A DNA stretch of 64,000 bases, from IMG/VR virus record IMGVR_UViG_2778261087_000003; one strand, 5' to 3'. Shown in pieces: positions 35,607 to 38,639 of the stretch; position 1 is the stretch's first letter; every line of letters starts with the position of its first letter. The notes below the pieces were generated by a model. That model did not search any database. It saw only the letters and a list, made by a program, of their open reading frames with translations, and was not told the DNA's origin. Made by a program: the position numbers and the translations under genes. This stretch comes from a virus (lineage: Duplodnaviria > Heunggongvirae > Uroviricota > Caudoviricetes).

Positions 35607-36248
35607 TTATAGATAATTTCCTTTTCCTGTTAATACTCCCTTAGGCACCTGTTTTTGTGCCAGCGTTTGGGTTCCGCGAATTATGTTAATCAGAGGGCTT
35701 AGTAACGATGGTTCCTGGCGTGCCTCAACTTCTCCAGCCATTGCCCTGATGTAGTCTGCGCTGGCAACGTTGTTGTATTCCGTCGCAAAGCAACATAGTA
35801 ACGTCAGAACATGCTCTGTCGTTATTTCGCTCCAGTTGATGTTGAAAAATTCATCGCCTTTTTTGTCGTGTTCGGAATCGAAGATGCTTTGGTGGAGGAT
35901 GTATTTGCCGGATTCTTTGCGCGGTAACTTGATCGCTTTCTGGCGTTCCAGCTCCTTGTAAATCTGCATTGCCTCAATTAGTACCGGCCTGCCGTTCATG
36001 AAGGGATCGCGCAACCTTACACGCTGGCCAACTCGTCCAGTAATAAAGCTGTTTTCCTCTTCCACCAGCACGATAAAACCCTTTTCCTCTTTTTCTCGCA
36101 ATTCGCGCAGCAGCTGGAGTTCCATATCGCGGCGGCGTTCAGGGTAGCTGGTCCGCTCAGCCATTATCAGCTCGTTATTGATCCATGCAGCAGTCATTGA
36201 CGCCGGTTTGCCGACGCTCATCGAAACAACGCATATTTTCTTATCCAT
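35607..36248 (-). CDS. mat: Mat-like protein (particle maturation)
   Basis: Start taken at internal ATG (MDKKICVV...) with G-rich SD; the longer ORF reaches 36359; synteny next to ref. Confidence 0.5.
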   Translation of the reverse strand: MDKKICVVSMSVGKPASMTAAWINNELIMAERTSYPERRRDMELQLLRELREKEEKGFIVLVEEENSFITGRVGQRVRLRDPFMNGRPVLIEAMQIYKELERQKAIKLPRKESGKYILHQSIFDSEHDKKGDEFFNINWSEITTEHVLTLLCCFATEYNNVASADYIRAMAGEVEARQEPSLLSPLINIIRGTQTLAQKQVPKGVLTGKGNYL

Positions 36249-36437
36249 AGCGCCCCCTACAAAAAAGAAAAGCCACCAGCGGCGGCTTAGCAATACAACT
36301 GAAGGTAGCGCCCGGTACTCAGACTGTGCCGTCCATGGAATATTTGAAAAGGGATCCATCCGTACCGGGCGTGTGATGATTCTGACTGAAGTAACTTGTC
36401 AGTTGTCAATCATTTATCATTAAAAATAATATATTTA

Positions 36438-36998
36438 TTAGTGCATGATGTTTGCCATCTCATAGGCGTCAGCCAGCAACTCCATCTCTGACTTGTTCAG
36501 CAAGGTGAATTCTTTCTTGCCTCCAACCACACCATCGGCATGGACAGGGACCAGCCAGGGGTATTTTTCTCTTACTTCAGCCGGTGCTGCATGCTGGTGG
36601 TGCCATCTACAAAGGGGCAATTGCTTTTTGTGACAACCCGGCGCGGTACGACCGGAGATATGGTGCAGAGATACCTCTTCAGATATTACTCCATGCATAT
36701 AGCAGGCAATGCAGGGGAGAGCGCCAAGAGCATTGGCGATGCTCCGTTCCTCCGCTGTCGGTGTTCGCCCCTTCAAGCCACGAGATTTTATCTTTACCGC
36801 ACTTTTCCGCGTTTTGCTGGCTGGTGGGCGCTCTTTCTGTTTAGCGATACGGCGGTCGATAGAATCCCGCATTTTCTGATATTGCGATTCTCGCCAGGCG
36901 GGGTCAGCCAACTTTTCCCGTTGCCGAGCGATAGCTCGTTCTCTGGCTGCCTTCTGCCACTTGCGGCACTGTTCAATTTTTTGTTCGTTTGTTTTCAT
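36438..36998 (-). CDS. ref: Ref, recombination enhancement function (HNH nuclease)
   Basis: 186 aa, MKTNEQKIEQCRKWQKAARERA...; HNH-type Cys/His motifs. Confidence 0.9.
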   Translation of the reverse strand: MKTNEQKIEQCRKWQKAARERAIARQREKLADPAWRESQYQKMRDSIDRRIAKQKERPPASKTRKSAVKIKSRGLKGRTPTAEERSIANALGALPCIACYMHGVISEEVSLHHISGRTAPGCHKKQLPLCRWHHQHAAPAEVREKYPWLVPVHADGVVGGKKEFTLLNKSEMELLADAYEMANIMH

Positions 36999-37003
36999 AT
37001 GGC

Positions 37004-37030
37004 AAAAAAAAAGGCGGCCTAATGGCCGCC
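37004..37030 (-). terminator. rho-independent terminator directly upstream of the ref start codon
   Basis: Minus strand ggcggcc-atta-ggccgcc followed by T9; ends 5 nt before the ref ATG. Confidence 0.55.
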
Positions 37031-37090
37031 AATGATGTCAAGGAGTGAAGTAATGGCAACGTCTTCGTAGTTGACAAAAACTGCGGCTCA

Positions 37091-37114
37091 ATTATAGCAA
37101 TCAATTAGAGCAAT
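37091..37114 (-). promoter_or_regulatory. bipartite C1 operator (atagcaat-N3-attagagcaat)
   Basis: Operator consensus core read on the minus strand; same bipartite layout as the site upstream of lpa. Confidence 0.5.
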
Positions 37115-37245
37115 GATAGATGTTTTGTTAATCGCGAATCACATTTTTTCACTTCAGTACCTGTGTGCTATACTCCTTCTTGATTGATTGGATGCGGAAT
37201 ACAAACCCGCTCTTTTGTGCAGCCTGGCTCCTTGCCAGGCTTTTT

Positions 37246-37557
37246 TTATTTCATCATGGACGCTGTTAACGCTTTGGATCTTGCTGAACTGATTGAAAGG
37301 GCATTGTTTACCTTACCCAGGAGTTCGCCAAATTCCGCCATCACTCTATTAAGCCCGCGCCGCGCTTCCTCCTCCGTTGCATTCATCACAAAATGTTCAG
37401 CACTCCGCATGCTTTTAACGGGGAACGCAACAGATATCGAGTCGATATCTGGCATCCTATCGCTCAATTTTACGGTGACAATGACAGATGGTGACTGAAT
37501 TTGAGAGCTTACAGACAGCACCACATATTTTCCGTCTATTTTGAAATCCTTCCGCAT
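37246..37557 (-). CDS. cra: Cra-like protein (cre-associated)
   Basis: 103-aa ORF between cre and ref; synteny. Confidence 0.45.
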   Translation of the reverse strand: MRKDFKIDGKYVVLSVSSQIQSPSVIVTVKLSDRMPDIDSISVAFPVKSMRSAEHFVMNATEEEARRGLNRVMAEFGELLGKVNNALSISSARSKALTASMMK

Positions 37558-37563
37558 GTGTCA

Positions 37564-37580
37564 CCATAAACATCAAATAA
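37564..37580 (-). promoter_or_regulatory. C1 operator-like site (ATTGCTCTAATTATTTG)
   Basis: Read on the minus strand between cre and cra. Confidence 0.5.
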
Positions 37581-37607
37581 TTAGAGCAATCAAGCGCAAA
37601 TTGACGG

Positions 37608-38639
37608 CTAATCGCCATCTTCCAGCAGGCGCACCATTGCCCCCGTTTCACTATCCAGGTTACGAATGTAGTTCATGACAATATTTACGTTGGTCCAGCC
37701 ACCAGCTTGCATGATCTCCGGTATTGAAACTCCGGCGCGGGCCATATCTCGCGCGGCACCGACACGGGCACTATGTCCAGACCAGGCCAGGTATCGCTGA
37801 CCAGAGTCATCTTTTGCCCCGTAAATCAATCGGTGAGTTGCTTCAAAAATCCCTTCCAGGGCGCGAGTTGATAGCTGGCTGGTGGATGATGGCGCGGCAA
37901 CACCATTTTTTCTGACGCGGCAAAACAGGTAGTTATTCGGATCATCAGCTACACCAGAGACAGAAATCCATCGCTCAACCAGTTTAGTTACCCCCAGGCT
38001 AAGTGCCTTCTCTACACCAGCGGTGCTAACCAGCGTTTTCGTTCTGCCAATATGGATTAACATCCTCCCACCGTCAGTACGTGAGATATCTTTAACCCTG
38101 ATCCTGGAAATTTCGGCTATACGTAACAGGGTGTTATAAGCAATCCCCAGAAATGCCAGATTACGTATATCCTGGCAGCGATCGCTATTTTCCATGAGTG
38201 AACGAACCTGGTCGAAATCAGTGCGTTCGAACGCCAGCGCCTGTTTTGCACGCTCACCGGCATCAACGTTTTCTTTTCGGATCCGTCGCATGACCAGTGA
38301 AACAGCATTGCTGTCACTTGGTCGTGGCAGACCGGACCGACGATGAAGCATATTTAGCTGGCCCAAATGTTGCTGGATAGTTTTTACTGCCAGACCGCGC
38401 GCCTGAAGATATAGAAGATAATCGCGAACATCTTCAGGTTCTGCGGGAAACCATTTCCGGTTATTCAACTTGCACCATGCCGCCCACGACCGGCAAACGG
38501 ACAGAAGCATTTTCCAGGTATGCTCAGAAAACGCCTGGCGATCCCTGAACATGTCCATCAGGTTCTTGCGAACCTCATCACTCGTTGCATCGACCGGTAA
38601 TGCAGGCAAATTTTGGTGTACGGTCAGTAAATTGGACAT
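37608..38639 (-). CDS. cre: Cre tyrosine recombinase
   Basis: 343 aa, MSNLLTVHQNLPALPVDATSDEVRKNLMDMF...; essentially the P1 Cre sequence with a few substitutions. Confidence 0.98.
   Translation of the reverse strand: MSNLLTVHQNLPALPVDATSDEVRKNLMDMFRDRQAFSEHTWKMLLSVCRSWAAWCKLNNRKWFPAEPEDVRDYLLYLQARGLAVKTIQQHLGQLNMLHRRSGLPRPSDSNAVSLVMRRIRKENVDAGERAKQALAFERTDFDQVRSLMENSDRCQDIRNLAFLGIAYNTLLRIAEISRIRVKDISRTDGGRMLIHIGRTKTLVSTAGVEKALSLGVTKLVERWISVSGVADDPNNYLFCRVRKNGVAAPSSTSQLSTRALEGIFEATHRLIYGAKDDSGQRYLAWSGHSARVGAARDMARAGVSIPEIMQAGGWTNVNIVMNYIRNLDSETGAMVRLLEDGD

What the first reader, a model, noticed from the sequence alone, without database searches (positions are those of the whole stretch)
36996..37114. 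Intrinsic terminator abutting the ref start codon, downstream of a bipartite C1 operator
On the minus strand a GC stem (ggcggcc-atta-ggccgcc) and T9 tract end 5 nt before the ref ATG, which has no Shine-Dalgarno. A bipartite C1 operator lies ~70 bp upstream. Either ref is made from a terminator-proximal or leaderless transcript, or the hairpin is an attenuator in the ref leader.
Basis: seen in the sequence. Interest (0 to 1): 0.35.

Follow-up and report, generated by a model that had tools for sequence, protein, structure and literature searches.

The report
Known terminator-attenuator in P1 ref leader
A strong transcription stop signal sits between the repressor-controlled promoter and the start codon of the phage P1 ref nuclease gene; it is real and conserved, but it was already published in 1988 as the ref attenuator, so the finding is ordinary.

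Summary
The window is a P1-like phage. Cre, c8, ref and mat lie on the minus strand. The hairpin GGCGGCC-ATTA-GGCCGCC (37030..37013) plus T9 (37012..37004) is real. It ends 5 nt before the ref ATG (36998), which has no Shine-Dalgarno. It is the strongest intrinsic terminator in the 64 kb.

A C1 operator lies 68 nt upstream (37114..37098). It is a single site, annotated as monovalent in P1, not bipartite. The second ATTGCT-ATAAT copy is the -10 box of promoter P2ref.

The hairpin therefore lies in the roughly 85-nt leader of the C1-controlled transcript.

- In 88 P1-like contigs it is never lost.
- The stem is almost invariant while the loop and leader vary.
- Every one-sided stem change gives a G·U pair.
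- A Ref lineage about 65% identical (Cronobacter phage JK004 and relatives) keeps the same layout with a different hairpin. Two of its seven pairs changed on both sides.

Best reading: a leader attenuator that also stops read-through from c8. I found no conserved antiterminator fold, leader peptide or leaderless promoter.

This matches Windle, Laufer and Hays 1988 ("attenuator-antiterminator control" of ref). It is already known, and interest is low.

The parts
37098..37114 (-). C1 repressor operator Oref, a single 17-bp site (ATTGCTCTAATTGATTG). Its last two bases, TG, form the extended -10 motif of P2ref.
   Evidence: 3 mismatches to the C1 consensus; 12 matches in the window against 0.26 expected. 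Identical to the site annotated 'monovalent ... Oref' in P1 AF234172.
37091..37119 (-). Promoter P2ref: -35 CTATCA (37119..37114), 17-nt spacer, TGc-TATAAT with the -10 box at 37096..37091. Predicted start about G37084.
   Evidence: Annotated in P1 as P2ref, 'promoter 2 for ref' of M23246. Coordinates transferred through alignment A1. TATAAT is invariant in 61 distinct haplotypes. The start site is inferred from spacing, not measured.
37031..37084 (-). Leader of the P2ref transcript upstream of the hairpin (about 54 nt), with no start codon or SD for a leader peptide.
   Evidence: Sequence. 24 of 54 columns vary among P1-like haplotypes. No conserved secondary structure other than the terminator.
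37032..37059 (-). Predicted second promoter P1ref (TTGCCA, 16 nt, TGa-CATCAT). Its start would fall at about 37027..37023, inside the 5' arm of the hairpin.
   Evidence: Annotated as 'predicted sigma 70 promoter P1ref' in P1 and found by the consensus scan at 9/12. Transcripts started there keep at most 4-5 stem pairs. Not conserved in the JK004 lineage.
37013..37030 (-). Terminator hairpin: 7 G-C pairs (GGCGGCC / GGCCGCC) with loop ATTA.
   Evidence: One of 14 stem columns varies, against 3 of 4 loop columns. Intact in all 88 IMG/VR contigs that keep both flanks.
37004..37012 (-). T9 run, the U-tract of the terminator. It is also the only sequence directly upstream of the start codon and is polymorphic (T7-T10) among relatives.
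   Evidence: P1 itself has T8.
36999..37003 (-). GCCAT spacer between the T-run and the ATG, with no Shine-Dalgarno.
   Evidence: Variants are GACCAT and ACCTT.
36438..36998 (-). ref gene, encoding the RecA-dependent HNH nuclease (186 aa).
   Evidence: PDB 3PLW at E = 1.7e-120 over residues 1-186. PF16786. The ATG is the first possible start codon after the in-frame upstream stop.

Best explanation
The hairpin plus U-run is an intrinsic (Rho-independent) terminator placed in the 5' leader of ref, where it acts as a transcription attenuator. When C1 repressor leaves Oref, RNA polymerase starts at P2ref (about 37084), transcribes a leader of about 54 nt and meets the terminator. Most transcripts probably end there as an RNA of about 75-80 nt. 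Only the read-through fraction continues into ref. Because the attenuator is also the first terminator on this strand after c8, it stops transcription coming from the cre-c8 region from reaching ref in the lysogen. The combined effect keeps a toxic RecA-dependent nuclease very low under repression and modest after induction. Read-through mRNA is translated from an AUG without a Shine-Dalgarno. The AUG sits in an unstructured U/A-rich region, which by inference favours S1-dependent, inefficient initiation. Shown here: the anatomy, its statistical non-randomness, selection on the RNA helix, and conservation of the layout across diverged lineages. Inferred: the transcription start, termination efficiency, how read-through arises (leakiness or antitermination), and the mode of translation.
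For: The anatomy and strength of the terminator are established. The promoter and operator upstream are annotated in P1 and identical in sequence here. Among 61 distinct P1-like haplotypes the stem has 1 of 14 variable columns (pi about 0.003). The leader has 24 of 54 (pi 0.042) and the loop 3 of 4 (pi 0.092). The most diverged haplotypes differ at 20-21 of 63 non-stem positions and at 0 of 14 stem positions (Fisher p = 0.007-0.009). In 88 contigs the hairpin is never deleted. All one-sided stem changes are C-to-T, which gives G·U pairs. JK004-type phages and plasmids, with Ref about 65% identical, keep the same order of parts: C1 operator, TATAAT, a diverged leader of about 60 nt, the hairpin GACGGTC-TTCG-GACCGTC, T8, then ATG or GTG. 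All cells pair, and 2 of 7 pairs changed on both sides. The gene upstream of ref is unrelated in that lineage, so the module from operator to ref is self-contained. Published work fits this reading. The title of Windle, Laufer and Hays 1988 names 'attenuator-antiterminator control' of ref. Ref transcript rises 73-fold on C1 inactivation, but to a lower level and slightly later than other C1-controlled genes (PMC4713147).
Against: No transcript ends were available here, so the P2ref start and actual termination are unmeasured. I could not read the 1988 paper itself; only its title was seen. A predicted second promoter, P1ref, would start inside the hairpin and could supply ref mRNA that never meets the terminator. 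The covariation rests on two lineages, so it reflects few independent events. D6-type ref genes have a normal SD and no terminator, so the attenuator is not a general feature of ref genes.
Confidence: 0.75

Rival explanations
1. Regulated attenuation. An alternative RNA pairing in the leader, or a phage or host antitermination factor, prevents the hairpin from forming during lytic growth, so read-through is switched on rather than constant. This is the 'antiterminator' half of the 1988 model.
For: The title of Windle et al. 1988. In the nascent P1/window leader, GUUGCCA (37061..37055) can pair with UGGCGGC, which covers the 5' arm (ddG -7.7 kcal/mol). In all four JK004-lineage leaders tested, a conserved ACUGUC(A) can pair with (U)GACGGU of the 5' arm (ddG -5.3 to -7.8; 1.7-16% of shuffles do as well). 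Ref induction peaks later than that of other C1-controlled genes.
Against: The P1-type pairing is lost in natural variants L064, L070 and L022 (ddG -2.1 to -2.8, no better than shuffles). RNAalifold on 23 distinct leaders keeps only the terminator. The terminator helix (-15 to -16 kcal/mol) is much more stable than any alternative. There is no leader peptide and no Rfam family at gathering score. No antitermination factor is known for P1 (my own knowledge).
Confidence: 0.25
2. Promoter bypass. Most ref mRNA comes from P1ref, which starts inside the 5' arm of the hairpin. Those transcripts cannot form the terminator and carry a 5' UTR of about 25 nt without an SD. The hairpin then only blocks transcripts from P2ref and from upstream.
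For: P1ref is annotated as predicted in the P1 record. TTGCCA-16-TGaCATCAT is a 9/12 match with an extended -10. The predicted starts at 37027..37023 leave at most 4-5 stem pairs (-5.6 to -9.5 kcal/mol in total). PMC4713147 says C1 occludes 'one of the ref promoters'.
Against: Matches of 9/12 are common by chance: 7 were found against 3.4 expected in 3 kb. P1ref is not covered by the operator, yet ref is induced 73-fold on C1 loss. No equivalent promoter exists in the JK004 lineage, which keeps the operator, promoter and terminator. Conservation within P1-like phages is no greater than for the rest of the leader.
Confidence: 0.2
3. Upstream-operon terminator only. The hairpin is simply the terminator of the cre-c8 transcription unit, and its position downstream of P2ref is incidental.
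For: The hairpin directly after c8 (37222..37240) has its T-run on the opposite strand, so it is a poor terminator for c8 transcripts. That makes the ref-leader hairpin the first good terminator on the c8 strand. In JK004 the upstream gene ends right at the operator.
Against: In both lineages a C1-controlled promoter with a perfect TATAAT lies 60-70 nt upstream of the hairpin, never downstream of it, even though the upstream genes are unrelated. This role is compatible with attenuation rather than an alternative to it.
Confidence: 0.1
4. Small RNA gene. The terminated P2ref transcript of about 75-80 nt is itself a functional, C1-controlled small RNA, and ref is expressed only as its read-through product.
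For: It has a strong promoter, a short transcript, and a terminator hairpin with a tail of at least 7 U, which is the usual build of Hfq-type sRNAs. A C/U-rich block (CUCCUUGAC in P1, CUCCCUGAC in JK004) resembling the anti-Shine-Dalgarno sequence is kept just upstream of the hairpin in both lineages, although the rest of the leader diverged.
Against: No expression data were available. No Rfam family reached gathering score; the best hits were about 17-24 bits against gathering scores of 41-50. 44% of leader columns vary within P1-like phages. In JK004 part of the conserved block lies inside the stem, so its conservation may only reflect the terminator.
Confidence: 0.1

Closest known systems
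The ref leader attenuator of phage P1 (Windle, Laufer and Hays 1988, J Bacteriol 170:4881; sequence M23246)
   Same: It is the same locus. The window is identical to P1 from the operator to the ATG except for T9 in place of T8. The promoter, operator and attenuator are as in the published title.
   Different: Nothing substantive differs. This copy has one extra T in the U-run and CGATTAA where P1 has the reported H-NS motif CGATAAA. I could not read the 1988 text to compare the proposed antiterminator.
The E. coli ampC attenuator, which is also the frd operon terminator (from my own knowledge of Jaurin/Grundström 1981-82)
   Same: A promoter for the downstream gene lies upstream of an intrinsic terminator that also ends the preceding transcription unit. 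Expression depends on read-through.
   Different: ampC read-through is linked to growth rate and ampC has a normal ribosome-binding site. Here the promoter is repressor-controlled and the gene lacks an SD. The comparison is by analogy only and was not tested.
Leader-peptide attenuators (trp, his, pyrBI)
   Same: A GC-rich hairpin plus a U8-9 run lies in the leader shortly before the structural gene.
   Different: There is no leader ORF with a start codon and SD. There is no conserved mutually exclusive antiterminator helix.
Processive antitermination systems of phages (lambda N/nut and Q, HK022 put RNA)
   Same: These would be a way for a phage to read through a leader terminator during lytic growth.
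   Different: No nut, put or Q-like element or factor was identified and there was no Rfam hit. This remains purely hypothetical for P1.

Membership tests
Intrinsic (Rho-independent) terminator | GC-rich stem of 5-14 bp with a loop of 3-8 nt | tested here: met
   Seven G-C pairs with a 4-nt loop, -16.2 kcal/mol including the tail context.
Intrinsic (Rho-independent) terminator | U-tract immediately 3' of the stem | tested here: met
   T9 starts at the base after the stem. The run is T7-T10 in 88 relatives.
Intrinsic (Rho-independent) terminator | RNA-level helix maintained in evolution | tested here: met
   100% of cells pair. Two of 7 pairs changed on both sides between lineages. All one-sided changes give G·U.
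Intrinsic (Rho-independent) terminator | Transcripts actually end in the U-tract | not testable with these tools
   No RNA 3'-end data were available.
Transcription attenuator (leader terminator) | Terminator lies between the promoter or transcription start and the start codon of the regulated gene | tested here: met
   The P2ref -10 box is at 37096..37091 (P1 annotation), the hairpin at 37030..37013 and the ATG at 36998. The start site is inferred from spacing.
Transcription attenuator (leader terminator) | Mutually exclusive antiterminator structure | tested here: inconclusive
   Candidates exist (GUUGCCA:UGGCGGC in P1; ACUGUCA:UGACGGU in the JK004 lineage). The P1 candidate is not conserved, and neither is clearly better than shuffles.
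Transcription attenuator (leader terminator) | A sensing device such as a leader peptide, riboswitch or binding protein | tested here: not met
   No leader ORF is present. The only ORF across the leader starts inside the operator and changes frame with T-run length. No Rfam family reached gathering score. Protein factors are not testable.
Bivalent (bipartite) C1 operator of P1 | Two overlapping 17-bp C1 sites | tested here: not met
   Only one site with at most 3 mismatches is present, on one strand. The adjacent copy has 6 mismatches. The P1 record calls Oref monovalent.
Leaderless mRNA | Transcription start at the A of the AUG, which needs a -10 element about 7 nt upstream | tested here: not met
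   The bases upstream are T9 followed by GCCAT. No hexamer there has A at position 2 and T at position 6 at the right distance.
Ref family RecA-dependent HNH nuclease (the downstream gene) | Homology over the full length to P1 Ref and the PF16786 domain | tested here: met
   3PLW at E = 1.7e-120 over residues 1-186. PF16786 at 168 bits against a cut-off of 26.9.

The most novel reading that the evidence does not exclude
The C1-controlled promoter, leader and terminator together form a gene for a lytic-phase small RNA of about 75-80 nt. Its conserved C/U-rich, anti-Shine-Dalgarno-like block would act on phage or host mRNAs, and Ref would be made only from its read-through. Together with the divergent plus-strand unit at 37146..37250, the c8-ref spacer would then encode two undescribed small RNAs.
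Probability: 0.08. Interest if true: 0.5.

Novelty: already known. Interest (0 to 1): 0.12.

Why it matters
Ref is a toxic RecA-dependent nuclease. It lowers lysogenisation and increases ciprofloxacin killing of P1 lysogens (PMC4713147), so tight control of its dose matters to the phage and to the many P1-like plasmids in Enterobacteriaceae. The attenuator itself has been in the literature since 1988. This check adds comparative support: the helix is selected as RNA, and the module from operator to ref is conserved in a diverged lineage with a different hairpin. It also shows that the 'antiterminator' half of the old model has no clear conserved RNA basis. How read-through is achieved remains a small open question. 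It could be settled with standard transcript mapping.

Tried and rejected
1. Reading the primary papers failed. Windle 1988 (PMC211533, PMID 3170487), Lu 1989 (PMC210067), Schaefer and Hays 1990 (PMC209135) and Lobocka 2004 (PMC523184) are not held. Only titles and secondary statements could be used.
2. Literature searches for P1 transcript maps or for the names P2ref, P1ref and Oref gave nothing relevant. The P1vir RNA-seq papers do not discuss the ref leader.
3. An Rfam scan of 36300..37700 at E up to 10 gave only sub-threshold sRNA-like hits driven by the terminator hairpins.
4. Leader peptide: rejected. The 43-aa TTG ORF at 36973..37104 starts inside the operator, upstream of the predicted start site, and its frame depends on T-run length.
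5. Leaderless start: rejected because no -10 element is present.
6. Bipartite operator: rejected.
7. Long-range pairing of GCCGC (37086..37082) with the 5' arm as an antiterminator: rejected. It lies at or upstream of the predicted start site and falls in the most variable stretch of the region (pi 0.15).
8. c8 as a linked trans-factor: there is no homologue upstream of ref in JK004.
9. Absence of a terminator feature in the P1 record is uninformative, because none is annotated in another 13 kb either.
10. A search for natural deletions of the hairpin found none in 88 contigs.

Full report
**What the window is.** The region is a P1-like phage or plasmid. On the minus strand lie cre (37608..38639), c8 (37246..37557), ref (36438..36998) and mat (35607..36359). 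The 1251 bases around the finding are 97.8% identical to phages JL22 and RCS47 and 93.3% identical to P1. From the c8 stop to the first codons of ref, the window differs from P1 at only a few bases. The 186-aa product matches the crystallised P1 Ref (3PLW) over its whole length at E = 1.7e-120, and it carries PF16786.

**Checking the observation.** The minus strand reads ...CATCATT GGCGGCC ATTA GGCCGCC TTTTTTTTT GCCAT ATG.
- The stem is at 37030..37024 and 37019..37013, and the T9 run at 37012..37004.
- The ATG is at 36998.
- The element folds at -16.2 kcal/mol, z = -3.9.
- My own scan of both strands of the 64 kb found four perfect-stem terminators with a T-run of at least 6.
- This one is the only site with a stem of at least 7 bp, at least 6 GC pairs and at least 8 T. 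None of 100 simulated windows had such a site.
- The 17 bases before the ATG have no complementarity to the 16S 3' end (+1.9 kcal/mol). That places ref in the weakest 3% of 63 ORFs of at least 120 aa.
- A C1 operator match, ATTGCTCTAATTGATTG, lies at 37114..37098, which is 68 nt upstream of the hairpin. The window holds 12 operator matches against 0.26 expected.

**The operator is not bipartite.** The tandem look of ATTGCTCTAAT-TG-ATTGCTATAAT is real, but the second copy has 6 mismatches to the 17-bp consensus. It has A where all 12 operator matches in the window have C at position 7, and no inverted partner site is present. Its TATAAT is the -10 box of the promoter. The P1 GenBank record (AF234172) annotates a 'monovalent C1 controlled operator Oref (former Op1 and Op2a)'. 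It places former Op2b (Omat) at the 3' end of ref. The JK004 lineage has the operator and TATAAT without the second ATTGCT copy.

**Anatomy around the hairpin.**
- The P1 record annotates P2ref. Its -35 is CTATCA and its -10 is TATAAT, here at 37096..37091. The -10 box is preceded by TGc, whose TG is the last two bases of the operator. The record cites it as 'promoter 2 for ref' of Windle's entry M23246.
- The record also annotates a 'predicted' P1ref (TTGCCA at 37059..37054, 16 nt, CATCAT at 37037..37032).
- By spacing, P2ref should start at about G37084. That gives a leader of about 85 nt with the terminator at its 3' end.
- By spacing, P1ref should start at 37027..37023, inside the 5' arm. 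Such transcripts keep at most 4-5 stem pairs.
- On the plus strand the hairpin is followed by AATGATG, so the terminator works in one direction only.
- The hairpin directly after c8 (37222..37240) has its T-run on the plus strand. For c8 transcripts it is a poor terminator, which makes the ref-leader hairpin the first good terminator on this strand.

**Comparative evidence within P1-like elements.** I collected 81 loci through the Ref protein and 88 contigs through a flank pattern that would have tolerated deletions of up to 27 nt.
- The hairpin is present in every one.
- Among 61 distinct haplotypes, 1 of 14 stem columns varies (pi about 0.003). The leader has 24 of 54 variable columns (pi 0.042) and the loop 3 of 4 (pi 0.092). 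Loop variants are ATTA, ATCA and TAAA. TATAAT is invariant.
- The two most diverged haplotypes (L063, L064) differ from P1 at 20-21 of 63 non-stem positions between the start site and the ATG, but at 0 of 14 stem positions (Fisher p = 0.007-0.009).
- Every one-sided stem change seen is a C-to-T change that keeps a G·U pair (GGCCGC-T, GGCCG-TT, GGCGGCT). This points to an RNA helix rather than a DNA palindrome.
- The T-run varies from 7 to 10.

**Comparative evidence beyond P1.** A tblastn search found Ref at 66% identity in Cronobacter phage JK004 and at 56% in phage D6.
- In JK004, three IMG/VR relatives and a Salmonella plasmid, the order of parts is the same. A C1 operator ATTGCTCTAATAATTAT and TATAAT come first, then a diverged leader of about 60 nt. 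Next come the hairpin GACGGTC-TTCG-GACCGTC (GGCCGTC in L088) and T8. Another 10-13 nt lead to ATG or GTG.
- MAFFT aligns the two hairpins column for column. All 70 cells pair. Two of seven pairs changed on both sides (G-C to A-U and C-G to U-A), and one sequence has U·G. These changes come from essentially two lineages, so they represent few events.
- The gene upstream of ref in JK004 is unrelated to c8 and ends at the operator. The module from operator to ref therefore travels as a unit.
- D6-type ref genes instead have an AAGAGG Shine-Dalgarno and no terminator. Their upstream region carries inverted repeats, a perfect 34-nt palindrome in the Shigella plasmid copy. The attenuator is thus a feature of the P1/JK004 branch, not of ref genes in general.

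**Mechanism.** The best-supported reading is a leader attenuator. C1 controls initiation at P2ref. The terminator then removes most transcripts, and it also removes read-through from cre-c8. Only a fraction reaches ref.

This suits a gene whose product damages the host. Published data show that ref transcript rises 73-fold on C1 inactivation. It reaches a lower level, and peaks slightly later, than ssb, dmt and kilA. Ref also lowers lysogenisation (PMC4713147). The same paper notes that C1 occludes 'one of the ref promoters' and that H-NS binds the region.

Translation from an AUG preceded only by U9-GCCAU is inferred to be SD-independent and weak. The role of the U-run as an S1 site is my inference from general knowledge and was not tested.

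**The antiterminator.** The title of Windle, Laufer and Hays (1988) speaks of 'attenuator-antiterminator control'. I could not obtain the text. I searched for a competing structure.
- In the nascent P1/window leader, GUUGCCA can pair with UGGCGGC (ddG -7.7). This is no better than 14% of shuffles, and it is lost in natural variants L064, L070 and L022.
- RNAalifold over 23 distinct leaders keeps only the terminator.
- In the JK004 lineage a conserved ACUGUC(A) can pair with (U)GACGGU of the 5' arm in all four sequences tested (ddG -5.3 to -7.8; 1.7-16% of shuffles do as well). This is suggestive only.
- There is no leader peptide and no Rfam family.

Regulated antitermination is therefore neither supported nor excluded. 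Simple leakiness is the more economical assumption.

**Rivals.**
- The P1ref bypass is possible in P1-like phages. It rests on a 9/12 consensus match of a kind that is common by chance (7 found against 3.4 expected). It is not under the operator even though ref is C1-dependent, and it is absent in the JK004 lineage.
- A leaderless mRNA is rejected because there is no -10 element.
- 'Only the c8 terminator' does not explain why a C1-controlled promoter sits upstream of the hairpin in two lineages with unrelated upstream genes.
- The terminated leader could be a small RNA in its own right. A C/U-rich block, CUCC(U/C)UGAC, is kept before the hairpin in both lineages. There are no expression data.

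**Verdict.** The feature is the published ref attenuator of P1, so it is already known and of low interest. The unresolved point is how read-through is achieved.

Noticed in passing
window 37146..37250, + strand: A possible small-RNA unit lies divergent from ref and antisense to the end of c8. It has the promoter TTTTCA-17-TGcTATACT (37146..37174), then about 66 nt containing a small hairpin (GCGG...CCGC). It ends with a perfect terminator AGCCTGGC-TCCTT-GCCAGGCT plus T7 (37221..37247). It folds at -23.2 kcal/mol, z = -3.2. TGCTATACT and the terminator stem are kept in 60 of 61 P1-like haplotypes while the spacer and loop vary. It is not annotated in P1 AF234172 and no Rfam family reaches gathering score.
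   Followed up: partly
window 37574..37590, - strand (between cre stop and c8 start): A C1-operator-like site, ATTGCTCTAATTATTTG (3 mismatches), lies just upstream of c8. P1 has ATTGCTATAATTATTTG there (4 mismatches, lacking the invariant C7) and no operator is annotated. In this phage c8 might be under C1 control.
   Followed up: partly
window about 37121..37127, - strand: The H-NS motif CGATAAA reported in the P1 ref 5' region (PMC4713147) reads CGATTAA in this window, a single A-to-T difference from P1.
   Followed up: no
window 37004..37012; loci L002-L083 and L172-L251: The U-tract of the ref terminator is a length-polymorphic homopolymer among P1-like elements: T7 in 4 contigs, T8 in most, T9 in several and T10 in 2. 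The window has T9 and P1 has T8.
   Followed up: yes
L009, about 110-130 nt upstream of the ref ATG: One IMG/VR contig has unrelated sequence replacing the left part of Oref (TGAGACGACCCCTAATTGGTTGCTATAAT). This is a rearrangement breakpoint inside the operator that leaves the -10 box, leader and terminator intact. Ref may be uncoupled from C1 there.
   Followed up: no
L086 (phage D6), L168, L169: about 40-110 nt upstream of ref: D6-type ref genes have a normal Shine-Dalgarno (AAGAGG in L086 and L169) and no leader terminator. Their upstream region carries an inverted repeat. It is a perfect 34-nt palindrome in the Shigella plasmid L168 (TGTGTTAGAAATTCAATTTTGAATTTCTAACACA) and degenerate copies in L086 and L169. 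It is probably the operator of a different repressor.
   Followed up: no
L085, L087-L089, L167: leader of ref in JK004-type elements: A conserved ACUGUC(A) block about 26-30 nt upstream of the hairpin is complementary to the 5' arm, (U)GACGGU. It is present in all four leaders tested although the flanks diverged, and it is a candidate antiterminator for that lineage.
   Followed up: partly
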